Shown: positions 1 through 19,265 of the stretch, one piece after another
Position numbering within the stretch: the first letter of the stretch is position 1
Layout of the letters: every line of letters begins with the position of its first letter
Source of the DNA: Microbotryum violaceum
Lineage: Eukaryota
DNA: 64,000 bases
Assembly (NCBI GenBank): GCA_001244265.2
Contig: CDLV01000010.1
Coordinates: forward strand, 1,302,001-1,366,000
Direction: 5' to 3'
Notes under the pieces: generated by a model
What the model was told of the DNA's origin: nothing
Seen by the model: the letters and a program-made list of their open reading frames with translations, nothing else
Databases searched by the model: none
Translations under genes and position numbers: made by a program

Positions 1-2416
1 GGGTGGCCCGAACGAACGCACTGCCAGTAGCGCTCTTGTTCGCGAAGATCAAGACCAGTCGTATCGGGCAAGAACATCCAGGTGAGGACGGCACCAATGA
101 GACCGAACCATGGCACGAACCAAAACTTGGTGTGGTTGTCGATGTAATTGTAAAGGACGGTGGGGACGAGGGCTCCGAGCTTTCCGGAGGCAGCTGAGAA
201 CCCGTGAGCACTACCACGCACGTTGGCGGGGTACACTTCGGCGGCGACGAGGAAAGTGGTGCAGTTAGGACCGAACTGTCAAGGTGGGAAGGCACAACGT
301 CAGTACCTCTGCAATGCCGAGATCGAACTGAGGATCCTGCGAGAGGATTGCGTGAAGAAGACGGATGACATACCTGAACGAAGAAGGACGACATGAAGTA
401 CAAGAACTGGAACATCTTGATCGGAGCTCCAGGCTTGCGGACTGAGGAGCCCAAGAAATGAGCAGCGGATGTCAGTCAACCTGGATCAAAATCACGCAAG
501 AGACCGGTTCCTTCAGGAAAGAGACTTACGCTGATCGTACCAGATGGCACAGGCGAGGAAGGCAGCAAAGTTGAAGGCGAAACCGATCTGCTGCATCCTT
601 ACGCGACCATAGCGCTTGTGATCGATAAGTCCGGCCGCGACGTAGTAACCGCACATGGAGACGACAGCGTTCTGTAGGGGCGCGAGCAAACAGTACCAAC
701 GTCGGCGAAAGCTGCGGGTATTGCAAAAGTGGCGCGTGTGCAGCGCGAAAACGTACAAGGAGAGAGTACTCCCAAGTGACCCACAGCGAGGCTCCAGGCT
801 TGATGATTTGGATGAAGATACCTTGGAAGACCTTGTTACCGTAGAAGCTATGGGCAGACAAGATGAAGCACGAATGTCAGAGGAAGCGTCATCCCACCGA
901 GGCGAAACGAGCCGGACTGACAAGATATCGGTCGCGAACCAACCAGCAGCAGTGGCGATCAAACGACCCCAGTAGTGCGAGCAGACGAGCTTGAGCGAAA
1001 CGGTGTCGTAGCCGGAAACGTTGGAGCGCTTCTTGGCGGCCTGGACAATAAGATCGGCGTCCTTGATGTGGTAGTAACGGAAGTAGGCGAGCCATGCGTG
1101 AAGGAGGCCGATGATGCCAAACGATACACGGAAGGTGTACTGGGCAGCCTTCTCGGAGTAGGGGGGTTCGGTTCGGCCAGAGTGGAAGATGAACAGGAGC
1201 AACATAAGAAGCGCCTGATTGAAGACTTGTCCCCAACCTTGCATGAGGAAAGCTAAAACTACGTTGCGACCACGGTGCAAGCGATCATCACGGGCACCCT
1301 CCGGGCCGGCCAAGTCCCGCTCGATCGAACGGGTACCGCAAGTCGGATATTCACCACCAACGCCTTATTGGGGAAGAGCATATACAGCGTTAGTTCCCGA
1401 TGGTCTTCCATGATGGTTTGACGCTCTCAGAAAGTCACTCACCGATACCATAGATGAAGAGGGAGATGGTGTAGGCGATGACCCATCCTTGGAGGGTCGC
1501 GCCCCACACGGAGGTGAGCATGATGACACCGATCAACATGACGACGGCATCCTGGACAAGACCGAACTTGCGGCCGATGAAATCCGCCTCCCAACCGACG
1601 AGGAGTTGACCGATGATGATACCGACGATCTCGAGGTAAGTGACACTTGCGATCAAATTCTTGTTGCAAACCTGGTGCGTCTTGCCCCAGCACTGAGGCC
1701 AGACGGCGGCGAACAACGGTTGCAGATTGCCAATCGAGAACAGGACGAAGCCTTCGACGAAAAGACCCATACCTGTTCCGAGTCATGGCGTAGCGCATCG
1801 CGAGCGTTTGTCAGTCTCCAGTAGTCTTGGGCGTACCCCGGGTAAGCTTTTCGGTGCAAGTCGCCGACTTGACTTGCTTAGGCGCCGACACCGATTTTGA
1901 ACTGACCGTTGCTGACATATTTGCGGAAGTAGGCGCCGAGGGGAGCCAGAGGATCGATCTTGGCCGAAGCACCGATGGCCTTGAGTTCTCGGAGAGCCTC
2001 CTTGTTGCTCTGTTCATTGATCCACTTGCGCCGCTCACCGTTGGGCACTGCGAATGAGCATCAGAGTGCGGAGGAGGCTAGACCCGTCAGCGCGCGTAAT
2101 TCGAAGGGTGGCGGAGCGAGCCTGTTGGAAGGCCCAGCTAAGCGTCTGCAGCCAACGCCGACCGCGACCGCGAGACCGACGTGCGGCAACGACGAATACC
2201 CTCCCGAGCAGCCATGAAAAGTAAACACAACTCACAGTCAGCCCAGTAGGTACCGTTGGCGGTGTAACTGTCGTCGGGGTAGAGCGCATCTTGCAAAAAG
2301 GCTTCGCGGTCGGCGTTGCTGAGCGACGTTCGTCCGGAGCCAGTCCCGCTCGAAGTCTGCTGCGAAACCGGCTGCTTCTCAGTTATGGAGTCGTGAGAAA
2401 GCGGCATCGTAGCCAT
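1..2416 (-). CDS. MFS inorganic phosphate transporter (Pho84-like); multi-exon, 3' end runs off the window
   Basis: ATG at 2416 (MATMPLSHDS). Spliced pieces read GLFVEGFVLFSIGNL, ADFIGRKFG, GVGGEYP, HRGRNVVLAFLMQGWGQ, FYGNKVFQ, YGRVRMQ, FGPNCTTFLVAAEVYPAN, all typical of the PHS (Pho84) subfamily. Confidence 0.85.
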
Positions 2417-2935: not shown

Positions 2936-3157
2936 TTAAAGCTGAATCCTCTCTGACAGCCACAAAAAAACTGGCATCTTCCACGTCGTTGTAGCACGTT
3001 TGGTAACTATTTCATCGACTCGAGCACTTGAGCGCACGTGCGCTCGTTCTTGCACGTCTCGAGCAATTGTTGGTGCATCAAGAGGAGCGGCGATCGAGAA
3101 GGTCGATTGGAGGACGAGCAAGGTCGCGGCGAGGAGGCCGGAGCGAGCGAGGACCAT
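2936..3157 (-). pseudogene. Short secreted pre-pro-peptide ORF, or the truncated 5' end of a secreted-protein gene
   Basis: AAA-ATG context; hydrophobic signal peptide (MVLARSGLLAATLLVLQSTFSIA-AP); propeptide ending in KR; only ~19 residues follow, through a T7 run, before the stop. Confidence 0.4.
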
Positions 3158-3229
3158 TTTGACTTGGCCAGGATCGTTTAGGGGCAGGCGCGAGATGTCA
3201 CAGTTAGTTTTTTTAGTATCATTATCATT

Positions 3230-3232
<3 letters not shown>

Positions 3233-3274
<42 letters not shown>
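3233..3274. repeat. Poly(T)42 homopolymer in an AT-rich patch, at the left edge of the accessory block
   Basis: Read directly; TTAGATTT occurs at both ends (3228-3235 and 3273-3280). Confidence 0.95.
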
Positions 3275-3277
<3 letters not shown>

Positions 3278-3313
3278 TTTCAGTAACAGTATAATTGTAT
3301 TAATACCTAGAAA

Positions 3314-4560
3314 CCTTCGGAAAAGTCCGAAGGAATGCTTTTACGCACACTGGCGGAAGCCAGTAGTGTAGGACTCATCGACCCTTCGTCACAACCATAC
3401 CTACCAAAAACCCCTTAGGTGGCTTACAAGACACAAGGCGACCCGTGGACTCCTGGATAGACGCTCGAAGCTCCTCGAATTCCGTTTCGGTGATCGGTTC
3501 CAAAGGATCCGACGAGAGTCTGAAGAGTTTCTATTCTGATTAGGCTTGAACTCCTGATTCTATTTCTGATATGCTAAACGGAAGATATCCTTGCTTTAAA
3601 AATTTTGCCTAGGCCTTACAAGTAATTAGCTTGTTCGTATGTTTAGTGCGCCTGGGTGACACTTTACTTCTTGGTCTCTTCTCCGTTCGCTCTCGCAACG
3701 GTTCTGACTGAAGTGTCATTCAGTGCGAGATACAAAGTGTCCCAAATCAATCATACGAGCGAGGCGAGTGCCCCGGAGTAAACTTGAGGGGGCTAAGAAC
3801 TCTCCGAACGATGGAGATGGTATAGGAAGGAAGGAATGAGAAGACATTCTGTCGGGACCGGAGGACGTTCACCCTTCTGCATCTCATTCCTTGCCCGGGA
3901 GTGATTTTTGGAGCCTTTGGATCCCGCCACTTGGAGGAACGAGCTGCAGGGTGTCTCGGATGCGCTGGGACGGAGGACTCGCCGGCACCGAAATTACGGG
4001 CCGCGCGGTGATTCGACGGCTCGGTAGCCGATAAATAAATCGGTGAAAACCCACCCGTTCCCTAGTAGCTACTTGGCACTGCAGTGCAAGTGGGTCCGGG
4101 TGGTTTGCTTGTCCCGGCGAGAGCGTTGCGTTATGACCGAGAGGTGCCTGGTAGTTACACAAGATGCTGACATTTGATGATCCCTTGGGTCGATGACTCG
4201 ATCATCTCGGTGACCTCGCCATGTCCAGTCAGAGGCAGTATGGTTTTTGGGAGACGAGATCGGATTCGCCAAAACGGCTCGTCCTGAAAGGGCGGGACGA
4301 CAAGGCGGTAACCGTGCGTTTAATGTGAATGGTTTGGTGTGACGAGTCGCTCAGTCGAGAGTGCGAAAGGGCGCAAACTGGGATCGGCTCGGCGGGAGGA
4401 GTCGAATGCATCGCGCTCGGTGAGAAAGAAAGATTGATCGATTCGAGCATGATTGGCACTGAAGACGAAAACAAGGTGATGCAACCCAATCTACTCTGCC
4501 CAGTCGACGCTCGAAATGGTTTTCGGGGATAGCGTCGACCTGCTCCGACCGTTGTTTCTG
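3314..4560 (+). ncRNA. Candidate large structured non-coding RNA (~1.25 kb) of unknown family, convergent with the Fanzor gene
   Basis: No convincing ORF. Stems: 3314-3321/3326-3333; 3349-3354/3359-3364 (GGAA loop); 3630-3641/3752-3763; 3658-3665/3734-3741; 3831-3841/3882-3892 (11 bp, perfect); 4176-4182/4200-4206; 4343-4349/4385-4391; 4503-4511/4531-4539. The non-Watson-Crick pairs I found read as G-U on the + strand, and GNRA loops lie on +. Confidence 0.6.
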
Positions 4561-4695
4561 AAGCTGACTGAACGAATTGGATAACAGGCTGTACATATTG
4601 ACCACTTCACCCATCGTTCTTAGCACCGACCCGATCCTCTGCTTTTTGACTGGCACGATGGCAAGCAATCTGTCACTGCCCAGGAGACTCGGCTT

Positions 4696-7600
4696 TCAGG
4701 CTTCTCCAACTCCCCCTTCCCTCGCTTCCCCTTCGCGCTCCTTGTTCCTGCCCTTTCCTCCGGGCTTGCTCCCTTTGGCCTTGCTGCCTTGCTGCCCCTT
4801 CTCGTCCTGCTTGTCCTCGTCCTTCCCGGCCTTGGGGTACCTGAAGGGGTGTTGTTGGAACGCGGCGACTTGTAAGCCCACAGTCGGCATGTTGCGTGCC
4901 GCGACAATGTCGCGGTGGATGGGCGGACGGCATTCTTTCTCGCACAGCATGACCCGCAGATTATTATGCTCGGCCCCGTGTGCTCGGCCATCCTTGAGAA
5001 GTCTGTGCGACCGGCGCGCCGTGACCGGTGCGATGTGACACCAGCAGGACATAGTCCCGTCGTTAGCATAATCCGGCAACGCCTTGGAACTCGTTCACGA
5101 CTGCTAGAATGTCCTGAAGGAACCTACCGGGATCGCTCCCCTGTCACCTCGTTGCGGCAGGTGGGGTCGCTGCAGACCGAGGAGGTATTGTATTCGTCGA
5201 CCGAGACGATCTCCACCACGAATCCTCACTCTTTCAATCTGTTGAACTCTTGAACGAGGTCTCGGCAAAGGACATTCGTCCTATACGTCGCCTTCTGTGT
5301 TCCACGACTCGAGCCTCCCTCGCCAACGAAGACCAGCACCGGACGTTGGCGCGGCGACAGGATGTCCTTTCGTTGGAGGACCTCTGCGGTCTTAATCTTG
5401 CTCAAGTCCGCTTGCTTTAACGTGTCATCGCGGGCCCTCTCTACAACAAGGTTGAAGCACGAGGTTCCATACGACAATCAGTATCCGGCTTGAACTTGTT
5501 CGAGAAGACTCCCTGCGGCGTGAAACGGAGGACGAACCTATCGTCCTCAAACCTGAAACCTCCATCACCTGCTCGACGAAGCGTCTTCTCGAAGCCTTGG
5601 TTAAGAGATTGGTCTTGGCCGCCCAGGCCTGTCGATTCGGCTCGCCGAGAAGGAGACGAGAGGAGGATCCACGAGCGAGCTCGGCGCGAGTGCGTGCGTC
5701 GGCGTCGTCGCGCTCGGTCGTATTCGAGTCAGAGGGGGCTGAAGCAGGACCGTCGAGGGTGGCGGCGGAGGTGGCAGGGCGTTGTCCCTCAAGAAGGGTT
5801 GCTGCGTGGCCGGGAGGTTTGGCGTGACCGAATCGGAGGCTGCCGGCCAGTTCAGCCGAGAGCTTCCGAACGTGGCTCTGCACCTTCCTCAACGGCTTGT
5901 CCAGCGCATCCGCGTAGATGACGACATCGTCTTGAATCTGAACCTCATTTCGGTCAAAGAGGGTAGCCGAAACGGCAATAGGACATTTCGTGCCCAGGTC
6001 GATGCCAATAACGATGGAGTCGTTGGCACCGTCCTGGACGATTTGTCGGAGTGCCGCATCGGTCGTGTAGTGGGTTCCGATGCGATCTGGACCAGCCCAG
6101 TCCTGCTCCGGCGATGGAAGTAAAGGCGAACACGGTTCGTCAGCTGGATGATACTGGATCCATTCCCCCCGGCCCGGAGACGGGTGGCCCCCGCGCCCGC
6201 GCAGCGAATACGCACCCCACCCTTGCCGTGGCTGTAGAGAAGTTTGAGGACCTTCTCGCCAGCATTCTCGACCCTCTCGAGGCGCGGCATACCGCCTCGT
6301 ACTGTCGGTAATGGGCGCAGGGTCGAGGCGGAAACCCACTTGACGAGCTCGTTCGGAGTTGCGAGGAGCGACAACCGTGCGACACAATCGTACGTCGGGT
6401 CGAACGCCACGGTTCCACTACTGGTCACGTGCTGGAATGTATCCGCGATCGACTGCGGGTCACGCGTGGATGCCGGGGCAGGGGTGTCGGCGCAAATTGG
6501 GCGGAGCAGGGGCAACTTGTTGGGGACCGCCTTGGCGACGTTGTAGCCTAGAAGCCGGACCGTTTGTCCATCCGATCGCCATTCTCCGTGGGGCACAAAG
6601 CCATTCGCCCCAAAGCACTCGACGTTGAAAAGAACCTTCGCCACGAGGGCTCCGAGATGATCGAATGGGGTGTCGATCCCACCCGAGTCAGGCCGACGGC
6701 TGGGGGGGGCCGCCTTCTTGGCGCGCTTGAAAGGGGGAGGATCGAGCGTCGTTTCGGGTGAGGGCTCTTCGAGATTGGCCGTGGATGAAGAGGCGGTAGC
6801 GAGAGCCGGTGCCACGTTGGCCGGGGCGGTGGTGGCACGAGGGGTCGCTTCCCCGAGCTGCTGATTGAGGTGACGGCGCAGCACCTCCCAGCGCTCGATC
6901 CATTCTCGCTTTGACGCCCACGAGTTCGTTGAGGTCTCGACAAAGGAGTAAGCGGAGGAGCGAGGGGGCTCGATCTGCGCGAGTAGCACGGTTGCGACGT
7001 GGTCCACGGGGTTGCTCGAGACGTGCGATCGCCAAGGCACCCAAACGCATCGTAGCCATTCGAGCAAGGTCTTGGCCACGTCTTCACCTTTGTAGATGAG
7101 GGTAGAAGTGCGTCGTAGGGTCATGGTAATGAACTCGCCCCCCAAATTCTGTACAAAGAGGTCGGATGGTTGAACAATCGGATCAGTGCAACTGCACTCG
7201 CATTGGAGCGCGTCGGCCCGGTGAGAGCCGGCGGTGCCACCACTCACCAATCCAAGGCCTCGGGTGTGCCCGCTCGCAACCTTGAGCGCGTGGAGGACCG
7301 GGAAGAGACAATGGGGGCGGTGTGATACCCCTCGGATCCAGTCGCAGATCGTCTGCTCGGCAAGACAGGAGCGCTCGTCGGGTGTGAGCATCCGCGGCGA
7401 GTTGTGGCGGATGATTTGCACCGTAACTTGGAACGTAGACCTTGCCACCGACGCTAGATCATAAAGGTTTGCCGCCTTTTGTGTCTGATTGGAGGCCTTG
7501 TCGTGTAGACTCGCGATCTTTGTGGTCAGGTCGCAAAGGAGTCGAACGTCGTGGCCGTCGGGCGAGTCGCGAGTCTGGCTTCGTAGACAGCCTCAACAAC

Positions 7601-8408
7601 GGCCTTCTTGACGCTCGACTTGAGTAACGAGCCCAGATCCTTGCCCCTTTTCGCGGGTGACGAGTACTTTGCGTCGTCCGCATCGTCGTCCTGAGGGGGT
7701 GTATTCGAGTTGTCGACGAAGCGACTGTCGACAAAGGCTGCGACGATTTGGTAAACTCGGTCTTTCCATCCAAAAAGCGCTTCGACGATCCTCATCGCAC
7801 GGTCGTCCCACCATTTGGGGGTGTGGGGGATCAGGGGGATCGGAGGGCGATTGCGTTTGGTTGCCTCAACGGCGTAGATCAAGGTAACCCACGCCTGTGC
7901 GAGGACCGATTCAGGGAACCCGTACCAGCGTGCCACCAACGAGCCGTCAGCCCCGTGCTCGTTTCGTCGCTGGTGTCTCGAACCATACGTCACTTACACC
8001 AGAAAATCCGATCGAGTCTTGCCCCCCCGATACGCGACGAAAATGCTCGTATTCTTGAGCACGTCGTTGCGACCCCTCGGGCGCATCCGAGGTGAGCCGA
8101 TCCGCGAATTTCGTCAAGGTCCTGCCGGGCGTCGCCTTGCCGCCGTCTTCTCGCAAGAGGTAGAGGAAGGCAAAGAGCAAGGTCCGCCACGCGTTCTTCT
8201 TGTCGCCTAGGTGTCTTCACTGATCGTCGGTGAGCTTGGTCAGGGTATGCCCTAGGGCCTCGCCGAGAATGGACTCGATCTCCCTGTGCGAGATCACAAG
8301 GAGGCGCACGAGCGGCTGCAGCGTGTGCAGACTCGGCTTTCGATCGGAGCCGGCAAATGGAGCGTCTACCGGAGCGGCATGCTCCGTTCGTGGCACTGGG
8401 GTCTCCAT
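4696..8408 (-). pseudogene. Fanzor1-type (eukaryotic TnpB) RNA-guided nuclease, six exons, ~1,060 aa when repaired; disrupted in this copy
   Basis: Exons 8408-7998, 7894-7248, 7148-6216, 6102-5538, 5440-5128, 5002-4696. Motifs in order: FVPHGEWRSDGQTVRLLGY (WED-type TDG motif), IVIGIDLG (RuvC-I D, 5998-6000), LVFVGEG, VDEYNTSSVCSDPTC (RuvC-II E, 5193-5195), CEKEC, HRDIVAARNM (RuvC-III D, 4909-4911). In-frame TGA at 8217-8219 and 5226-5228; frameshift near 7530-7600. Confidence 0.88.
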
Positions 8409-9269
8409 CTTCGCGGGTGAAATTGATGATGGTGCGACGTGGTGCGAGGCGAAGGCGCTTGACGGGGACCGGCGCGCTCCTGGCTCATCAGTTCGATCTT
8501 CTGATCCCTCAAAATGACTCCGAACCATGGAAGGGCAACACGAGTAATGGGTCGTTGGACTCAGAGTAGTACGAGCAGATGTGTGAAAATATGAGCCTCG
8601 TGTTACAACCATCAAGAACACTGCTTTGCGCATTGTTGCTGCTACAAATCAGGTCGACTTGGTGACCTCGGGTGACCGAGGGGTCTCCTTTTTCGGAAGA
8701 TCGCATCGCAGACGAGCGGCGGCGGCGCGGGCTAGCGTCGTTGGCACGGATGAACCAAGAACTTGACGTCGAGTCGATTGATAAGCGCCAAGCCTGGCCT
8801 CCGGGCGAGTATAAAAGCGCCACCCCGCTCTCACCTCTCTCACTCCTTCCTTCTTCTTCGTTGATGAGTACCTCTCACATGGCTCCTCCACCACTGGGCC
8901 GAAACCGACTAGCGCATCGACGCAGCACCGAGGCGGTAGGTGGTGGAAGTCGGCAGTAGTGTACCATCAGCCACCGTGAGTTCACCCCTCCCACTTGTTG
9001 CAAGTATGTACCACCGTCGCTGACTTGGGCACTGCCCTCCTCTGGTCTTGACTCGGATCGTCACCAGCCTCCGATCTCGCTCTTGATCGAAGAGGGGCCC
9101 ACGGCAGTCCTGGTCGTCTTGCGAGGTAAAAAGTTTGGGAGAAGTTGTTGATTATCATTGTATCGGGTCAGTCCCGCTTGTGGCCACCTCCGAGCATGCA
9201 CCCCCACCGCCACCGCAGCTGCCATCATCGGCCGGACACGACCTCGTACGACAGACTTGGGCTGACCTT

Positions 9270-9590
9270 GCTCTGACCTTCACCTTTGCATGCCCGTTCA
9301 TCTTCATCTACCTTCACATCACACCATCTTCACCTCTATATCGATTCTCGTCTTCACCTTCACCCTTCACCCTTCCCCATCACCATCACATTCGCTTCCC
9401 CCTCGAATCACCTCCACCTTCATCCTTTGCCTTCATCTCTACGTCTGTTTCTCCCCATTGTACCTCCACCTTTGAATTTACCGCATTTCATGCTGCTCGT
9501 TTTTGACCTTGATCTTGAACGCCAACCTCGCCTTCACCGCACCGTCCACCTCTTGCTTACGTCATCCACCTCCACCTTTGCCTCCACCTC
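9270..9590. repeat. Degenerate C/T-rich hexamer low-complexity tract (CACCTT/CATCTT-like)
   Basis: Recurrent caccttcacc, catcttcacc and cacctccacc units; produces spurious HLHL/SSSP ORFs. Confidence 0.7.
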
Positions 9591-9862
9591 GGGTTTTGGC
9601 GTTACAGGGGATTTCCTTGTCCGCCAATCGGCAGTGCAAGACGTCATGACCGGTATCAATGATGAATCAACAACTTTGTCCACAAAAAGTGAGTTTTATG
9701 CACACCAGGTATCACTGCATACTAGTAGTTCCGTCTGCTCGAACGTCAAGCTGCGAGCTGCTGCTAACATGCATGGTCACCCGCCGCCGACAGCTGCTTC
9801 AACTGGCAATGCGGCGGGACAGGTCAGACTCGAGGAGGGGATGATGGAGCGGAAGTGTGTGG

Positions 9863-10010
9863 GTTCGCTGTGTTTGCTTTTGTTTTTGTTTTTTTCTCAC
9901 GTGCACGTATCAGGCCGCGTTGCACAGCGACTCCGACGATGGTCCTCTTCTTTGTTTTCTCATTGTTTGGGTAGAACAGAGTCCGAGGATTAACCGTACT
10001 GAAATTCGAT
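9863..10010 (+). repeat. Short interspersed repeat, copy 1 (T-tract plus ~115-bp core)
   Basis: Shares TTCTCACGTGCACGTA, GCGTTGCACAGCG, GTCCTCTTCTTTGT, GGTAGAACAGAGTCCGAGGA and TAACCGTACTG colinearly with 19104-19265. Confidence 0.9.
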
Positions 10011-10341
10011 AGGTTCAGGCGCGGTCTCCACTTCATGTTGGTCGGGGCTAGGCATATGCATCCTTTAACCGTCATTCATACGTGCGGCGAAATGATTGAG
10101 CGGTCATCTCTCGGTCTACTCCAGCAGTCCTTAGTCATGTTAATCTCGTCATGCAACCCGGCTAAACGAGTCCTCGTCCCGGATTTCCGCACACGAAGTG
10201 GCTCGGGGCGGGGGACGGCATTTTACAAGGGAGACCATATCGGGGACCAATTTCACAAGAGACACGAGATACCATTGGCAGAGAAAGACATCAAAAAGTA
10301 CCTCTAGCTACGAAGGTATCTTCTAAAAGCTAGTCGTAATC

Positions 10342-11265
10342 CTAACCAGAAGCTTCCAACGAAGCGATGCGGTCGACCAACTGGCGGTTCTGCTCTTTTA
10401 GCTGCTCGTTCTCCGTCTCAAGCTCTTGCACCCTCTCCATTTTCCTCATCCTCGACTTTCTCGCCGAGATGGTGTTTTGCAACCTCTTCTTCTCGACAGC
10501 TGCAACGACCTCTTCAGGCAAGTCGCTCGGGGTCGCTAAGGACTCGAAGGTGGGCTCGATCTCGCCAGAGGCGATGCGCTTGACGATCTCACGCTCGGCA
10601 GCGGTGGTCTTGCGCTTCCTTGTCGTCTTGGAAGGCAGTAAAACGGTGCGAGCTTGAACCGGGGCCGCCAAGTCAAGCATCTGCGTTTTACGGAATCCAT
10701 TAGGAGCGGGCTTGACGCCGGATGAGTTGGAAGACGAGGCGACGGCGGGCGAGGCAACCGCCGCGGGTTCGACGGCAGGGGCGAGTGGCCTGAGCGACGA
10801 CGAGCGGGGCGTGGGCAAGGACGCCGTACCTGACTGAGCAGTAGGGGTCGGCGGTGGCGCGACGAGAGTTTTGAGGGGCGCAAAGAGCGAGTAGTCGAGG
10901 GGAGGCGGTAGTTCGCCGGCGGCGAAATCGTCGAATAACGGTGAGCACGAAAATTCGGAAAAGGTACTATTCTCGAGGCCTAGAGGCGAGTCGAGAAGTC
11001 GATCAAAGCTGATGATGCCTTGGTTCATCGATGGGAGGTTGCCCATCAGGGCAGCGAGAGCGGCTGTGGTATCAGTCGACGCGGACGGAGATGTCTCGAA
11101 CGACGAGGCATCGATTGCGGGTAAGTTCAGCGATAGAGCGGGGGGAGGCGAGTACGACGAGTCCAAAGGCATGTTCAGAAAGTCTGAAATGGCGGTAGAG
11201 GACAAGCAAGCAAGGATGAGCCTGAGAATAACCCGAAACTGAAGAGCCCGAGACTGACCCATCAT
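10342..11265 (-). CDS. Gcn4/Cpc1(CpcA)-like bZIP transcription factor
   Basis: C-terminal bZIP KKRLQNTISARKSRMRKMERVQELETENEQL. Likely main ATG at 11265 with an in-frame 75-nt intron at 11258-11184 (MMDFLNMPLD). The leader carries uORFs. Confidence 0.8.
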   Translation of the reverse strand: MMGQSRALQFRVILRLILACLSSTAISDFLNMPLDSSYSPPPALSLNLPAIDASSFETSPSASTDTTAALAALMGNLPSMNQGIISFDRLLDSPLGLENSTFSEFSCSPLFDDFAAGELPPPLDYSLFAPLKTLVAPPPTPTAQSGTASLPTPRSSSLRPLAPAVEPAAVASPAVASSSNSSGVKPAPNGFRKTQMLDLAAPVQARTVLLPSKTTRKRKTTAAEREIVKRIASGEIEPTFESLATPSDLPEEVVAAVEKKRLQNTISARKSRMRKMERVQELETENEQLKEQNRQLVDRIASLEASG

Positions 11266-11903
11266 GAAGGCCTTGGCAAGCAGTTCCTCGTGTCTAAATT
11301 TGTTGAGTTGTTCTTGTTGTGGGACCGTCGGTGTGATAGGATGCGGTGGTGAGATTGTTTCATTCCGTCGACATTGCTCGTGCGTTGCATCGCTCAAATT
11401 CAGCGACGGGATCGAGGCGAGGTCGCTGATCGATGCGGTCGAAGATGGCAGGGCGAGACCGGCACTCAGCGAAGGGGACAGAGCGGGAGATACGTGACCA
11501 GGATGGAAGGGATTAACGTGACCATGGCGTCCATCATCGGCCGGAGCGGGGGGATGGACGAGGTCGACGAGCGACGCGGTGGGTTCGAGACTAGGGCACG
11601 GACGGTTTAGATACGGGACCCGTTCGTCGTCGGCACGGCACGCGGCCTGCCTCGGAACTGGGCCGGGTTGAAATCCGCCAGAGTCAATTCGCATTTTTGA
11701 ATGTTGTTGTGCGTGCGAAGGCACGAAGTGGTGGGAGTGAAGGTCTGCATCTTGGCTACGGGTAAGGAAGTCGAGAAGCCTGATAAGATGTGGAGGGTCA
11801 CTGGGTCAGCGACAAGGCCTTCCACGGGAGATCAGGACCGTGCATAGAGCCAGGTCACGGCGAAACCCGGATTGAACTAGAACTGTAGGTAGTGAGTCAC
11901 TCA
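11262..11903 (-). promoter_or_regulatory. uORF-containing 5' leader of the bZIP gene
   Basis: Out-of-frame AUG ORFs at 11750-11607, 11537-11466 and 11390-11262; the last stop overlaps the main start (ATGA). TGACTCA at 11899-11893. Confidence 0.6.
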
Positions 11904-12477: not shown

Positions 12478-15471
12478 TTAGTGAGCACCTTGAAGAGCCA
12501 CTGTGCGAAAACGACAATAAATGTGGCTCAGCCAAGCTGCTCACGGGCGTCGGTACCGGTACCGGGTGTTGGGTCAAGTCGGCTTACTCAGCGCGGCCGT
12601 GAACGTCAGGATGAGACGCGGTCGGACTTCCACAATGTCCTCGGCAACGATAAAGATGAGGGAGCCTGCGCGCACGCAAAAGAGACTAGCGTCAGCGTTA
12701 CAGAGAGCGCACCCACGCAGCCCCGACAGCAACTTACCGAGCTTCCGGGCGATACTAATCGCAAGTTTGGCTATACGGAGATGACCATGTCCAGGTCAGA
12801 GTCTACCTGAACGGAAGCAAAAGATTCACCTAATCTTACCATTTGCCTTGCACTCCTCTTCGTTCCTGCCCTCGTACACGAGTGTGTAGTCGACGTAGCC
12901 GGGCTTGAGCGAGTCCAACAGATCGAGGAAGAAGTGACCGGTCTTCAAGCTCGGGTCCTTAAAGTTGCGCATGGTCGAACGCTTGCCTCCCTTGGCAACT
13001 TGGTCGTTCGCCCACTTGACGATATCACTGTCCGTAATCTCGCGACCACCCTTGCTGAGACTGGCCATCGTGGCGAGGATGTTGCGGCGCATCATTTGCC
13101 AGACCAGGCCGAGCGTGAGTGTGCGAGAACCATCGACGAGATCCGAGCCTTGAATGCCGACCATCTGCATCCTGTTCGCCTTGGCGAGGTCGACAGCATA
13201 GTTGGTGTTCTCAACGGCCTTGAATCGCGAAAGAGGAAGGGGTGTCTTGGCAACACGGCGCCAGACCACCGAGCCGGGGATGACCTTGTCGAACGCTTGG
13301 AGCAGGACCAAACCATCCTGGTGGGCAAGGTCGAAGGCCACGATCAGATCAACTCGCTTATAACCATGGAACACCAGTGGCACCGACCCACCCTGAGATC
13401 CTCGAACAAATCATACACTCCCGGGTCGACATCAAGCGAGTTGAGCCAGAGCGTGAACACGCGGGCTTCGCGCTCTCCTTCGGCATCAAAGTCCTCAATG
13501 ACGGGTCGCTCGTTCTCCTCGAGAGGTTCAAGGCACGGCCAAGTGTTGAACAGGTTGGCGACGAAAGCCAGGTTGAGCTTGGCGTTCCCGGCAACGAGCG
13601 AGCTCGCTGTCAAGTATTTGCGGCAGCCAATCGCATCGGCGTTTTGCAAGACCTGCAACGACAGAGCGAGAGAGTGCATGAGATATGGGAAACCTCACCA
13701 AACGTGAACGCCCCACATGATGCCACAGTTGCTCACCTGCTCGGCACGGTTGTGCAAATCTCGCTCCTGCAAAGGTGCACGAGAGCAGGACTCGGGCTTG
13801 AGCTGATTCAACAGTACGGTGTAGTTCTCTCCATCCGAGACGTCCTTCGAAAAGTTGGAGACTCTGCATGTGGTGGGTGGATATCTCTGGAATCAATCTT
13901 TGCTAGAGTGCGAATATCTTCCTCGCCATATTGCACTCACCGTCGAGGCCAGTTCGCGGCCTTCAGATGATAGTTGAACCATCGCAGTAAGATTTGGTCT
14001 GGGGGCAAGCGTAGGAATTGCTCGAGGGTCTCATCATCCTCAAGGAGTCGATACAGCTCTGGGTGGAGCTTGATGTCGATCTTGTTGAGGAGACCTTTAC
14101 GGATGATCTGCCAAATAAGACCGAGGATGAGGTGTTCACGGCCTTCGACCAAGTCCGAGGCGCCGATGTTGACGACGGACAAGCCGAGCGCTTTCGAAGA
14201 AGAAATGACAAGGTTGTTGTTTTCGGTCATCTGGAAGGCGTTTATAGATTTAGCCGCTCCTCCCGAAGGTGCGGGCATGGCCGACGGCGCCTTCTTGGCT
14301 GCCTTGGGCTTGTTGAGTACACGCTCATCGATCGTGTCGGGGACCGAGTCGTTAATCAATTTGGAGAGAATGAGCCCATCTGTGGTTATGTTACACTGTG
14401 AAGGATCAGCCCGACAAGGGGTCGTTGTGAAAAGTGGGAGCTCGACCTACCTCGGCACTCGTCGAAGATTTGCATCGTGTCGGTCGGGATGGGCAGCCTC
14501 GATCCAATATCGGCATCTCCAGCGAGGACCTAGACCATACGCGAAAATCGTACACAATACGCAGTCAGCTCCTACCGACCCCTGCTGGTCATTCAGCGAC
14601 GATCAGAATCTTCTGACCTGGTTGATGTGCCTCGTGAACTCGGTTCGTTCGTCCTCGTTGATCGAGTGGGTGATGTTGGTGTTGGATCCCTGAACGAGCA
14701 CCTTTCCACCACCCCCAGTCGAGCCAGCACCTCCCCCAGCGCCGGTGGGACCAGTGCCAACAGCAGCTTTTGTTCCCGAGTTGGCCCCGATCAGTCCGCT
14801 CAAGGCGCCGCCCCTCAAGACCTGACCTGCTCCCGCTCCTGCACCTTCTCGCAACTTCGAGACGAGATCCACAAAGTCTTCGAGCTCGACCGCTCCCGAA
14901 GAATCGAGGTTGACTTGCTTGAGTGTCTCGCGGACTTGGTCGTAGGTGTACTTGCCGGCGGCGGATGACGACGAGGCGCCCGAGGACAAGGAAGTTAGAA
15001 CGGTCGACTTGGGCAAACGGCCCGTGGAGTCGAGATCGATGGTGCTGCAGACACACAGACCCCAGAGGCTTGAGTCAGCCAGAAACAACTCGACGGCCGG
15101 GATGAATCACGAGCCGTTCGGTTCGATGACGACACCGTCCCGTCAGTCCGCGCGTGCCCGTCGTGCGCCAGTGATTTGGAACCATCATGCTGCTAGAAGG
15201 CGCACTCTTGCCTCCGGTCCCATCTTCCCTCGGAAGGTCCATGTTTGTGCACGACTCGCTGGGCCGAGCGTGCAGTGGACAGGCTCGGCCCCTCGGCGGT
15301 CAGCCGGACGGGATCGATCGAGCTTGACATGTCGTGTAGATGGCATCGAAGGGAAGATCGAGTGGAGTACTTCGACTAGGCTCGAAACACTCACTTGAAT
15401 TGATTGACGAGACCCATCATCTCCTCTTGAGAGAAGTCGGGATACTTGCGCTGCAGCTTGATGACGTTCAT
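12478..15471 (-). CDS. SAC6: Fimbrin (actin-bundling protein; EF-hands and four CH domains)
   Basis: MNVIKLQRKYP start; THSINEDERTEFTRHIN, INDSVPDTIDERVLN, HLILGLIWQIIR, LPPDQILLRWFNYHLK, AEGEREARVFTLWLNSL, EDIVEVRPRLILTF. Confidence 0.95.
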
Positions 15472-19103: not shown

Positions 19104-19265
19104 GTTCGCATGTTTTTTTTTTTTTTTTTTTTTCTCTTTTTTCTCACGTGCACGTAATACGTACCAGCCGGCGTTGCACAGCGGCTCCGTCTGGTGTCCT
19201 CTTCTTTGTGTTGTCATTTTTTTGGTAGAACAGAGTCCGAGGAATAACCGTACTGTAAAGTCGAT
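19104..19265 (+). repeat. Short interspersed repeat, copy 2 (T21 tract plus core)
   Basis: Colinear match to 9863-10010, including an exact 20-mer (19224-19243 = 9970-9989). Confidence 0.9.

What the first reader, a model, noticed from the sequence alone, without database searches (positions are those of the whole stretch)
4696..8408. Hidden, intron-split, unusually large Fanzor (eukaryotic RNA-guided nuclease) gene
Seen: ORF fragments in different frames join through five GT-AG introns with branch-like motifs: 7997-7895 (GTAAGT, phase 0), 7247-7149 (GTGAGT, 99 nt, in frame), 6215-6103 (GTGCGT, phase 0), 5537-5441 (GTTCGT, phase 1) and 5127-5003 (GTAGGT, phase 2). The spliced length is 3,176 nt, one base short of 1,059 codons. 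The product has RSDGQTVRL, IGIDLG, LVFVGEG, VDEYNTS, CxxxxC...CxxxC and HRDIVAARNM in order. Known: this is the TnpB/Fanzor RuvC-ZnF layout, and Fanzors have a rearranged RuvC-II in which the catalytic Glu sits in the DE-x-x-TS motif before the zinc finger. Inference: this is a Fanzor1 from a basidiomycete yeast, larger than the characterised ones I know, and easily missed by ORF-based mining.
Basis: partly seen in the sequence, partly recalled or inferred. Interest (0 to 1): 0.92.

Follow-up and report, generated by a model that had tools for sequence, protein, structure and literature searches.

The report
Dead copy of giant fungal Fanzor-type gene
This is a broken copy of a five-intron gene from an anther-smut fungus whose intact relatives encode an unusually large Fanzor-type (TnpB-like) nuclease with a long front part of unknown role.

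Summary
All five GT-AG introns exist at the stated coordinates, and the spliced length is 3,176 nt. Spliced contigs of two coded runs of a ~95%-alike relative confirm four of the five introns exactly. Intron 2 rests only on homologue alignments.

The window's copy is a pseudogene. Intact relatives read W, A and R there.

The host is Microbotryum lychnidis-dioicae, and the locus is partly annotated as hypothetical protein MVLG_02280. The family is multi-copy in Microbotryum and was found nowhere else that I searched.

The C-terminal ~430 aa is of TnpB/Fanzor type:
- Pfam PF07282 passes its cut-off only in full-length spliced models.
- hhalign against 34 TnpBs gives E 1.1e-6, against 0.1-0.84 for controls.
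- The alternative Glu sits six residues before the zinc finger, and three sister lineages carry DPG.

The N-terminal ~525 aa matches nothing. The Fanzor1 subtype, the guide RNA, the transposon ends and convergence of the catalytic triad are all unshown.

The parts
7998..8408 (-). Exon 1 (ATG at 8408), with an in-frame TGA at 8219-8217 where intact relatives have Trp
   Evidence: Intron 1 joint seen in X19 and X20.
7895..7997 (-). Intron 1, 103 nt, GTAAGT..CAG, phase 0
   Evidence: Spliced contigs in X19 (depth 11.9) and X20 (depth 46.3).
7248..7894 (-). Exon 2 (647 nt), with a 1-nt deletion in an Ala codon between 7569 and 7568
   Evidence: An extra base behind 7568 is present in X19 (25 of 25 depth) and X20 (46.3 of 46.3), and absent in X5 (0 of 11.9).
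7149..7247 (-). Intron 2, 99 nt, in frame and free of stops. No RNA evidence that it is removed.
   Evidence: GT..AG. Retained in X19 contig record 10. Absent from paralogues and annotated models.
6216..7148 (-). Exon 3: end of the family-specific N-terminal region, a KRAKK NLS-like stretch (6728-6714), and W-R-S-D-G (RSDGQTVRL at 6578-6552) at the start of the part that aligns to TnpB
   Evidence: The hhalign match starts at residue 527.
6103..6215 (-). Intron 3, 113 nt, phase 0
   Evidence: A joint skipping 113 nt in X19 and X20.
5538..6102 (-). Exon 4: RuvC-I motif IGIDLG (6009-5992, Asp699), followed by a low-complexity insertion
5441..5537 (-). Intron 4, 97 nt, phase 1
   Evidence: Joint in X19 and X20.
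5128..5440 (-). Exon 5: strand LVFVGEG (5336-5316); in-frame TGA at 5228-5226 where relatives have Arg; alternative Glu in VDEYNTS (5201-5181); first zinc-finger pair CSDPTC (5174-5157)
   Evidence: 5228 A>G in X19 and X20 (all depth) and in 13.2 of 20.8 depth in X5.
5003..5127 (-). Intron 5, 125 nt, phase 2. It splits the zinc ribbon.
   Evidence: Joint in X19 and X20. The Pfam match runs across it in P0031, P0007 and P0009.
4696..5002 (-). Exon 6: second zinc-finger pair CEKEC (4944-4930), RuvC-III HRDIVAARNM (4917-4888, Asp988), Lys/Gly-rich tail, stop at 4698-4696
4357..4695 (-). 3' flank also conserved in a copy on another chromosome of a sister species. Part of the repeated unit and the place to look for a guide RNA.
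   Evidence: The tail of P0031 aligns by tblastn down to 4357. No fold signal (z +0.31) and no Rfam match.
8409..8600 (-). 5' leader. Transcript contigs reach 8574. Summed DNA contig depth rises to 64.5 and 158.8, against about 11.9 inside the gene.
   Evidence: tables 2 and 8.

Best explanation
Window 8408-4696 (minus strand) is a decayed copy of a six-exon, five-intron gene. The gene belongs to a dispersed multi-copy family found only in Microbotryum.

Intact members encode proteins of about 935-1,100 aa in two parts.
- Residues 1 to about 525 are a family-specific, mostly helical region. It has no detectable relatives and ends in a KRAKK-type basic stretch.
- Residues about 527 to 1,000 are a Fanzor-type member of the TnpB superfamily. 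In order, this part holds a WED-like strand (W-x-S/T-D/N-G), RuvC-I (GID-P/L-G), a disordered insertion, a strand whose canonical Glu position is not conserved, the alternative Glu (VDE) six residues before a CxxxxC...Cx2-3C zinc ribbon, and RuvC-III (HRD..A..N).

By homology, which is inference and not shown here, intact members would bind an RNA made from their own 3' end and cut matching DNA with the D-E-D site.

The window's copy cannot make this protein. It carries TGG>TGA (Trp64), a 1-nt deletion (Ala246) and CGA>TGA (Arg924). A closely related intact copy in a sister organism is transcribed and spliced.
For: Gene structure: five GT-AG introns, of which 4 of 5 are seen as exact joints in contigs of X19 and X20. 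Exon pieces align without breaks to full-length paralogues across junctions 4 and 5.

Lesions:
- Found.
- Intact relatives P0005, P0022 and P0031 have W, A and R at the three sites.
- X19 and X20 carry the extra base at 7568 and CGA at 5228.
- Run X5 lacks the extra base (0 of 11.9 depth) and holds both forms at 5228, so two of the three lesions are not assembly errors.

Family:
- Named relatives occur in 4 Microbotryum species.
- By locus tags, the window's lineage sits at about 8 loci on 6 chromosomes of one M. saponariae strain.
- Paralogues are 34-36% identical and keep every catalytic motif.

TnpB/Fanzor nature:
- PF07282 scores 32.5 bits (P0009) and 27.2 bits (P0031), above the 26.3 cut-off, and 22.1 bits for P0007.
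- NCBIfam guided_TnpB gives E 8.2e-6 and PHROG 506 transposase gives E 5e-6, both at the C-terminal end of those profiles.
- hhalign of the family against 34 non-redundant TnpBs gives E 1.1e-6 and probability 91, aligning residues 527-1031 to TnpB 20-400. Residues 900 to the end alone give E 2.4e-8.
- Controls for that comparison: reversed 0.5, N-terminal half 0.52, and 8 of 8 column shuffles between 0.1 and 0.84.
- MAFFT puts GIDxG, VDE.LTS and HRD..A..N on the TnpB motifs. G649, D651, G653, C931, C935, D942 and N948 are nearly invariant over 39 rows.
- The relaxed Fanzor pattern (GIDxG...E-x6-C...C...C...C-x6-D) matches 3 of 3 complete family sequences and 0 of 34 TnpBs.
- The ESM Atlas places the C-terminal parts of P0009 and P0007 at scores of 0.96-0.97 next to eukaryote and giant-virus clusters carrying PF07282 and DUF8286.
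- In the AlphaFold model made with TnpB rows, the RuvC module has block pLDDT of mostly 64-92, with dips to 51-60. All 50 listed VIA-align rows are RuvC nucleases (Cas12f 12.3, ApmFz2 10.2, PpFz 9.6, SpuFz1 9.5, ISDra2 TnpB 9.0).
Against: Weaknesses in the homology evidence:
- Significant sequence similarity lies mainly in the last ~130 residues. Residues 527-899 alone give only E 0.014.
- Neither the family profile nor single proteins hit any PDB sequence.
- The good structure model used an alignment that contained 32 TnpBs, so its TnpB-like fold is partly built in. The family-only model was unusable (pLDDT 37), although it predicted the same order of strands and helices.

Departures from the published Fanzor fingerprint:
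- The strict RegEx of Yoon et al. is not met by any member. The D-to-E spacing is 233-292, not 120-160. The first Cys pair is CxxxxC. The gap between the Cys pairs is 28-29, not 12-18.
- The window's lineage has DLG, not DPG.

What was not found:
- No guide RNA, terminal repeats, target-site duplication or neighbouring transposase.
- Whether X19 and X20 are RNA is the run index's guess. The intron-less contigs are what suggest it.
Confidence: 0.82

Rival explanations
1. The family is a domesticated host gene family, not a mobile element. Its RuvC module and large N-terminal domain would serve a cellular role, and the window holds one redundant paralogue that decayed.
For: No terminal repeats, target-site duplication or transposase gene were found around the locus. 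The neighbours are ordinary host genes: an MFS transporter-like ORF, a bZIP protein and a fimbrin-like protein. Three paralogue lineages at 34-52% identity keep all motifs, which points to long-term selection. An intact copy is spliced and covered at contig depths of 93-157.
Against: By locus tags, near-identical copies sit at about 8 loci on 6 chromosomes of one strain. The 3' flank is conserved together with the gene in a copy on another chromosome. Partial and rearranged copies appear as loose ends in DNA-type run X5 and in X18, whose kind is only guessed. Stop codons and frameshifts accumulate. This is the pattern of a young repeat family.
Confidence: 0.12
2. The locus is a working gene in this strain that makes the annotated 719-aa MVLG_02280 product, or another truncated or alternatively spliced form.
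For: The public annotation carries such a model. Intron 2 is in frame and free of stops, so isoforms are possible.
Against: That model starts after the frameshift. It also jumps from LKE to LLKDG, removing the stop together with the alternative Glu and the first Cys pair, so it would lack the active site. No spliced contig of the window's own sequence was seen. In X18, 7 of the 22 laid contigs are 99% or more alike to the window, and the zero-difference ones listed run unspliced into introns 2 and 3.
Confidence: 0.05
3. The C-terminal module is only a zinc ribbon with a TnpB-like tail attached to an unrelated protein, not a complete RuvC nuclease.
For: Profile significance is concentrated in residues 900 to the end. 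Residues 527-899 alone give E 0.014.
Against: GID-P/L-G aligns to the TnpB RuvC-I motif with nearly invariant G, D and G over 39 rows. The full-length hhalign alignment is colinear over 368 columns. Both structure models predict the strand and helix order of a RuvC fold, including the one made without TnpB rows.
Confidence: 0.05

Closest known systems
Fanzor1, for example SpuFz1 of Spizellomyces punctatus (PDB 8GKH; Saito 2023, PMC10432273)
   Same: It is a eukaryotic (fungal) TnpB homologue with RuvC plus a TNB zinc ribbon. The Glu lies in the loop between the fifth strand and the TNB domain, and the third Asp lies on the following helix (Xu 2024 passage; strand order). VIA-align gives Z 9.5 over model residues 637-968.
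   Different: It is about 1,058 aa against 638 aa. It has five introns. It has a ~525-aa N-terminal region with no relatives. The spacing from RuvC-I to the Glu is much longer. No inverted-repeat ends or omega RNA were found here. The Fz1 hallmarks (TDG motif, REC2) are not shown.
PpFz1 of Parasitella parasitica, with the ~100-aa FRI insertion in RuvC (Xu 2024, PMC11423790)
   Same: It is a Fanzor enlarged by an insertion inside the RuvC domain. VIA-align gives Z 9.6.
   Different: Here the insertion is low-complexity and poorly conserved, and acidic and ~140 aa longer in P0009. It is not a folded domain. The main size gain is N-terminal.
Fanzor2 / pro-Fanzor IS607 TnpBs with DPG and the alternative Glu (Yoon 2023, PMC10711439), for example ApmFz2 (PDB 9B0L)
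   Same: The Glu sits exactly six residues before the first Cys. DPG is present in 3 of 4 family lineages. ApmFz2 is the best Foldseek row (E 7.9e-3), with VIA-align Z 10.2.
   Different: There is no IS607 TnpA. The gene is nuclear, fungal and intron-bearing. The zinc-finger spacing is CxxxxC...CxxxC. The protein is more than twice the size.
Canonical TnpB (E. coli InsQ, ISDra2 TnpB)
   Same: The motifs are colinear, with hhalign E 1.1e-6 and VIA-align Z 9.0 to 8H1J.
   Different: The canonical RuvC-II Glu is not conserved in this family. The relaxed alternative-Glu pattern matches 0 of 34 TnpBs. The host is eukaryotic and the gene has introns.

Membership tests
TnpB superfamily (RuvC + TNB zinc ribbon) | Pfam Cas12f1-like_TNB (PF07282) at or above its gathering score | tested here: met
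   P0009 scores 32.5 bits and P0031 27.2 bits, against a cut-off of 26.3; P0031 is the window's lineage, 88% identical. The window's exons 5 and 6 scanned alone give 12.6 and 15.3 bits on adjoining profile positions 17-35 and 36-60.
TnpB superfamily (RuvC + TNB zinc ribbon) | Profile-profile homology over the RuvC domain | tested here: met
   hhalign gives E 1.1e-6 and probability 91 over 368 columns. All 10 controls (reversed, N-terminal half, 8 column shuffles) give E of 0.1 or more. The signal lies mainly in residues 900 to the end.
TnpB superfamily (RuvC + TNB zinc ribbon) | RuvC fold of the C-terminal module | tested here: inconclusive
   VIA-align Z is 8.9-12.3, and all 50 rows are RuvC nucleases. 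However, the model's alignment held 32 TnpB rows. The family-only model had pLDDT 37.
TnpB superfamily (RuvC + TNB zinc ribbon) | The three acidic residues meet in one active site | not testable with these tools
Only positions in secondary structure were seen, in P0007 numbering: D651 at a strand end, E890 just after strand 882-889, D942 at the start of helix 941-959.
Fanzor (fingerprints of Yoon et al. 2023) | Alternative Glu six residues upstream of the zinc finger, with the canonical Glu lost | tested here: met
   E-x6-C is present in the window model, P0007 and P0009. Neither candidate canonical column keeps an acid: E/V/K at VGEG and E/S/D/D at VMEV.
Fanzor (fingerprints of Yoon et al. 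2023) | DPG in RuvC-I, at family level | tested here: met
   P0006, P0007 and P0009 have GIDPG.
Fanzor (fingerprints of Yoon et al. 2023) | DPG in RuvC-I, in the window's own lineage | tested here: not met
   The window's spliced model and all seven relatives of its lineage whose sequences I read (P0001-P0005, P0022, P0031) have GIDLG, the hydrophobic form typical of TnpB.
Fanzor (fingerprints of Yoon et al. 2023) | The published strict RegEx DPG-x(120,160)-E-x6-CxxC-x(12,18)-CxxC-x(4,8)-D | tested here: not met
   0 of 9 family sequences match. The D-to-E spacing is 233-292, the first pair is CxxxxC, and the gap between pairs is 28-29.
Fanzor (general) | Encoded in a eukaryotic nuclear genome and adapted to it (introns) | tested here: met
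   The host is Microbotryum. There are five introns, four with spliced contigs.
Fanzor (general) | Cognate omega/fRNA at the 3' end, and RNA-guided cleavage | tested here: inconclusive
   The 3' flank 4357-4695 is conserved in another copy. It shows no fold signal (z +0.31) and no Rfam match. No small-RNA data were available.
Fanzor (general) | Residence in a transposon with defined ends | tested here: inconclusive
   The family is multi-copy and dispersed. No convincing inverted repeats were found (best 16 nt), and no other copy lies in the window.
Fanzor1 subtype | TDG motif in the WED domain | tested here: inconclusive
   W-x-SDG or W-x-TNG lies N-terminal to RuvC-I in 3 lineages, but the WED region was not modelled (pLDDT 24-44 for residues 401-630).
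Fanzor1 subtype | REC2 of kinked helices; placement inside the Fz1 clade | not tested
   No reference Fz1 or Fz2 sequences could be obtained, and the REC region of the model is of low confidence.

The most novel reading that the evidence does not exclude
Intact members, such as the M. saponariae proteins P0031, P0007 and P0009, form an undescribed and still active Fanzor lineage confined to anther-smut fungi. Their ~525-aa N-terminal domain, conserved across paralogues at ~35% identity, would add a function that other Fanzors get from a separate transposase or host factor. The function could be self-mobilisation or chromatin or target-site choice. The unit would then be a single-gene RNA-guided mobile element.
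Probability: 0.2. Interest if true: 0.75.

Novelty: new variant of a known kind. Interest (0 to 1): 0.45.

Why it matters
Fanzors are the only known eukaryotic RNA-guided DNA nucleases and are being developed as genome editors. This family would extend them into Pucciniomycotina. Its architecture is about 1.6 times the usual size and includes a long conserved front domain of unknown role.

The family also shows concretely why intron-split members escape ORF-based and pattern-based mining. The Pfam domain reaches its threshold only after exons 5 and 6 are joined. Public annotations cut the last exon off as a separate 110-122-aa 'gene' at several loci.

The particular copy in this window is dead. 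Its value is as a pointer to the intact, expressed relatives.

Tried and rejected
Searches that found nothing:
- Sequence searches of PDB with P0005 and with the family profiles A1 and A3 gave no Fanzor, TnpB or Cas12 hit at E up to 10.
- Word-index protein searches with P0009 residues 470-850 and 695-860 found only P0009 itself.
- The exhaustive representative search with the 567-aa ORF found 5 proteins: 4 from Microbotryum and one odd metagenome repeat.
- A viral-contig scan with A1 gave 64 pattern matches and 0 relatives.
- A metagenome-contig scan with A1 gave 117 pattern matches and 0 relatives.
- tblastn of P0009 against phage records gave no match.
- Pfam, NCBIfam and PHROGs gave nothing for the N-terminal ~525 aa.

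Locus features looked for and not found:
- Rfam on 3000-10500 gave no match.
- An RNA fold of 4430-4730 gave z +0.31.
- The repeat search on 3000-10400 found no convincing terminal inverted repeats; the best was 16 nt at 3826/8838.
- A self-BLAST found no second copy in the window.

Models and comparisons that were too weak to use:
- The family-only AlphaFold model had pLDDT 37 and was not used for fold search.
- hhalign of A3 against the single InsQ sequence gave only E 0.049.

Data that were not available:
- No whole genome is held for this window.
- No RNA holder is listed for the window's exact sequence.
- Parts of the stretch have no cover in X18, and no joint over intron 2 was seen in any run.
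- Notes of the earlier scan held nothing for this genome.

Considered and dropped:
- An alternative genetic code reading TGA as sense. The frameshift remains, and relatives read TGG and CGA at those sites.
- Calling LVFVGEG the canonical RuvC-II strand with certainty. The model's strand order favours it, but hhalign and MAFFT place the TnpB IEDL motif elsewhere.


Full report
WHAT IS IN THE SEQUENCE

All five are GT..AG, with lengths of 103, 99, 113, 97 and 125 nt. The spliced length is 3,176 nt. Each intron holds a CTRAY word near its 3' end (read).

The spliced frame is not open. It has TGA at 8219-8217, a missing base in an Ala codon between 7569 and 7568, and TGA at 5228-5226.

ARE THE INTRONS REAL?

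I laid contigs of four coded public runs on 4500-8600. Two runs of one study, X19 and X20, hold contigs about 95% alike to the window. Their organism is coded C, and their kind is only guessed to be RNA.

These contigs join 5002>5128, 5440>5538, 6104>6218 and 7893>7997. They skip 125, 97, 113 and 103 nt, at contig depths of 93.1 and 157.4 for the first three joints and 11.9 and 46.3 for the last. These are introns 5, 4, 3 and 1.

The 2-nt offset at intron 3 is what an aligner gives if these contigs read GAG where the window has GGG. The named relatives do read GAG there (GKGEDW in P0003-P0005).

Intron 2 is different. It is in frame and stop-free, and it is retained, with a 30-nt insertion, in the only X19 contig that crosses it. 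No run shows it removed. It rests on the paralogues P0007 and P0009 and on annotated models that lack those residues. So 4 of 5 introns have transcript-type support.

HOST, ANNOTATION AND FAMILY

Exon 4 finds the 719-aa hypothetical protein MVLG_02280 of Microbotryum lychnidis-dioicae p1A1 Lamole at 100% identity. It also finds relatives in M. silenes-dioicae, M. saponariae and M. intermedium.

MVLG_02280 starts behind the frameshift. It also jumps over the second stop, and with it over the Glu motif and the first Cys pair.

Most models in the sister species stop at ...GERSR, because they read into intron 5. The last exon is annotated there as a separate 110-122-aa protein at several neighbouring locus tags.

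Models that carry the last exon are P0031 (1,104 aa, window lineage, 88% identical to the window's spliced product), P0007 (968 aa), P0009 (935 aa) and P0006 (935 aa). In P0006 the stretch with the Glu motif is garbled.

By locus tags, the window's lineage sits at about 8 loci on 6 chromosomes of one M. saponariae strain. Two further paralogue lineages, 34-36% identical, lie elsewhere in that genome.

An exhaustive HMMER scan of 1.84 billion representatives with the 567-aa middle ORF found 5 proteins. Four are from Microbotryum and one is an unexplained metagenome repeat. Scans of viral and metagenome contigs found no relatives.

THE COPY IS DEAD

At the three lesions, P0005, P0022 and P0031 have Trp, Ala and Arg. 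X19 and X20 carry the extra base at 7568 (25 of 25 and 46.3 of 46.3 depth) and CGA at 5228 (all depth).

Run X5 matches the window perfectly over 6128-7614. It lacks the extra base (0 of 11.9 depth) and shows both forms at 5228 (13.2 of 20.8 depth with G). Two of the three lesions are therefore real, and a second, better-preserved copy exists in that organism. The state of 8217 in the runs was not among the rows shown.

The M. silenes-dioicae model P0002 omits exactly the 20 residues around the first stop. This suggests, but does not show, that the first stop is shared.

IS IT TnpB/FANZOR?

Sequence evidence:
- On single exons Pfam gives only weak but adjoining hits. Exon 5 matches PF07282 positions 17-35 and exon 6 matches positions 36-60.
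- On full-length models the same family passes its curated cut-off of 26.3 bits. P0009 scores 32.5 bits and P0031 scores 27.2 bits across the intron-5 junction. P0007 scores 22.1 bits.
- NCBIfam guided_TnpB (E 8.2e-6) and PHROG 506 transposase (E 5e-6) match the same stretch at the C-terminal end of their profiles.

Profile-profile test. I fetched E. coli insQ and 110 TnpB loci and reduced them to 34 sequences below 70% identity. I then ran hhalign against a family alignment in which the window's product carried X at its three lesions.
- The full comparison gave E 1.1e-6 and probability 91 over 368 columns, aligning residues 527-1031 to TnpB positions 20-400.
- Controls gave E 0.5 (reversed), 0.52 (N-terminal 525 residues) and 0.1-0.84 (8 of 8 column shuffles).
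- Residues 900 to the end alone gave E 2.4e-8. Residues 527-899 alone gave E 0.014.

Firm homology therefore covers the Glu strand, the zinc ribbon and RuvC-III. The RuvC-I assignment rests on colinearity and on motif alignment: GIDxG on the TnpB GxDxG, with G649, D651 and G653 nearly invariant over 39 rows.

The ESM Atlas puts the C-terminal parts of P0009 and P0007 next to eukaryote and giant-virus clusters that carry PF07282 and DUF8286, at scores of 0.96-0.97.

Structure:
- A model from the family alignment alone failed (pLDDT 37).
- With 32 TnpB rows added, the RuvC module reached block pLDDT of mostly 64-92, with dips to 51-60.
- Foldseek's best rows were ApmFz2, Cas12f, SpuFz and PpFz, with E 8e-3 to 0.1 and probability up to 1.0.
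- All 50 VIA-align rows were RuvC nucleases, with Z 8.9-12.3.
- Because TnpB rows shaped that model, I count it as consistency, not proof.
- Both models give the RuvC order of strands and helices. In P0007 numbering, D651 ends a strand, E890 follows strand 882-889 just before the zinc ribbon, and D942 opens helix 941-959.
- This is the layout that Xu et al. describe for Fz, TnpB and Cas12a, with the Glu in the loop between the fifth strand and the TNB domain (PMC11423790, passages read).
- I could not measure distances, because no coordinates are given.

FANZOR FINGERPRINTS

Yoon et al. (PMC10711439, passages read) define Fanzors by two features: DPG in RuvC-I, and an alternative Glu six residues before the zinc finger.
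- The Glu rule is met exactly in the window product, P0007 and P0009.
- DPG is present in P0006, P0007 and P0009. The window's lineage has DLG.
- Their strict RegEx matches none of 9 family sequences, because the spacings are longer and the first Cys pair is CxxxxC. A relaxed form matches 3 of 3 complete members and 0 of 34 TnpBs.
- Jiang et al. (PMC10530073, passages read) put the alternative Glu about 45 residues after the lost canonical one. From the VGEGG strand to E935 is 42-43 residues. However, hhalign and MAFFT place the TnpB IEDL motif elsewhere, so the canonical site's position is unresolved.
- Neither candidate column keeps an acid across the paralogues.
- Fz1 hallmarks are not established. 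SDG or TNG stands where TDG might be, and the WED and REC regions were not modelled.

SIZE

The product would be 1,058 aa. The Fanzor mean is 620 aa, most Fz1 are 600-700 aa and SpuFz1 is 638 aa. The excess is mainly residues 1 to about 525. This region is conserved among paralogues but has no match in Pfam, NCBIfam, PHROGs or TnpB profiles. A disordered insertion after RuvC-I adds more.

SURROUNDINGS

The neighbours are ordinary host genes, and there is no transposase. No convincing inverted repeats were found. There is no second copy in the window, no Rfam hit and no fold signal in the 3' flank.

The 3' flank down to 4357 is conserved in the M. saponariae Chr2 copy, where the P0031 gene model reads into it. 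The repeated unit therefore extends at least 340 nt past the stop. That is where a guide RNA would be expected by analogy.

LITERATURE

No paper in the searchable library holds both 'Fanzor' and 'Microbotryum' or both 'Fanzor' and 'Basidiomycota'. One unrelated red-alga preprint holds 'Fanzor' and 'basidiomyc*'. Bao and Jurka 2013 is recalled, not read here.

VERDICT

The Fanzor-type reading is well supported at family level. The specific locus is a pseudogene that was already partly annotated. The subtype, the guide RNA, mobility and catalysis remain inference.

Noticed in passing
window 8336-8600 (and probably beyond): Summed contig depth in run X5 rises from about 11.9 inside the gene to 64.5 (8336-8472) and 158.8 (8473-8600). 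Several different continuations start at 8595. The leader or upstream end therefore looks far more repeated than the gene body, perhaps as solo ends or a separate repeat.
   Followed up: no
proteins P0008 and P0010-P0020 (ENA metagenome contigs of 3.8-5.7 kb): A tandemly repeated ~58-aa unit weakly matches the family's middle region around ...WVPWRS..NPVDHVA.. (E 2.1e-5, 4 stretches). Its origin and meaning are unknown.
   Followed up: no
window 8028 and 8265: Contigs of X5 and X18 match up to 8028 or from 8265 and then run on into unlike sequence. This points to other, rearranged or interrupted copies of the element in those organisms (table 7).
   Followed up: no
window 3232-3274: A long A/T homopolymer-like run reads as poly-Lys or poly-Phe in the ORF lists. 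It lies beside a small ORF with a signal-peptide-like start at 2936-3340.
   Followed up: no
window 9878-10010 and 19124-19265: A 142-nt direct repeat at 82% identity, outside the Fanzor unit.
   Followed up: no
window 10342-11805 (-), 12826-14446 (-), 2-1364 (-): Flanking host genes by eye: a bZIP-type C-terminus, fimbrin-like calponin-homology repeats, and an MFS or phosphate-transporter-like ORF. These names come from reading the translations. I ran no family scan on them.
   Followed up: no
M. saponariae and M. silenes-dioicae annotations (P0028, P0029, P0030, P0032): The last exon of the family (half of the zinc ribbon plus RuvC-III) is annotated as its own 110-122-aa protein next to the truncated main model at several loci. 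This is a systematic gene-model split.
   Followed up: partly
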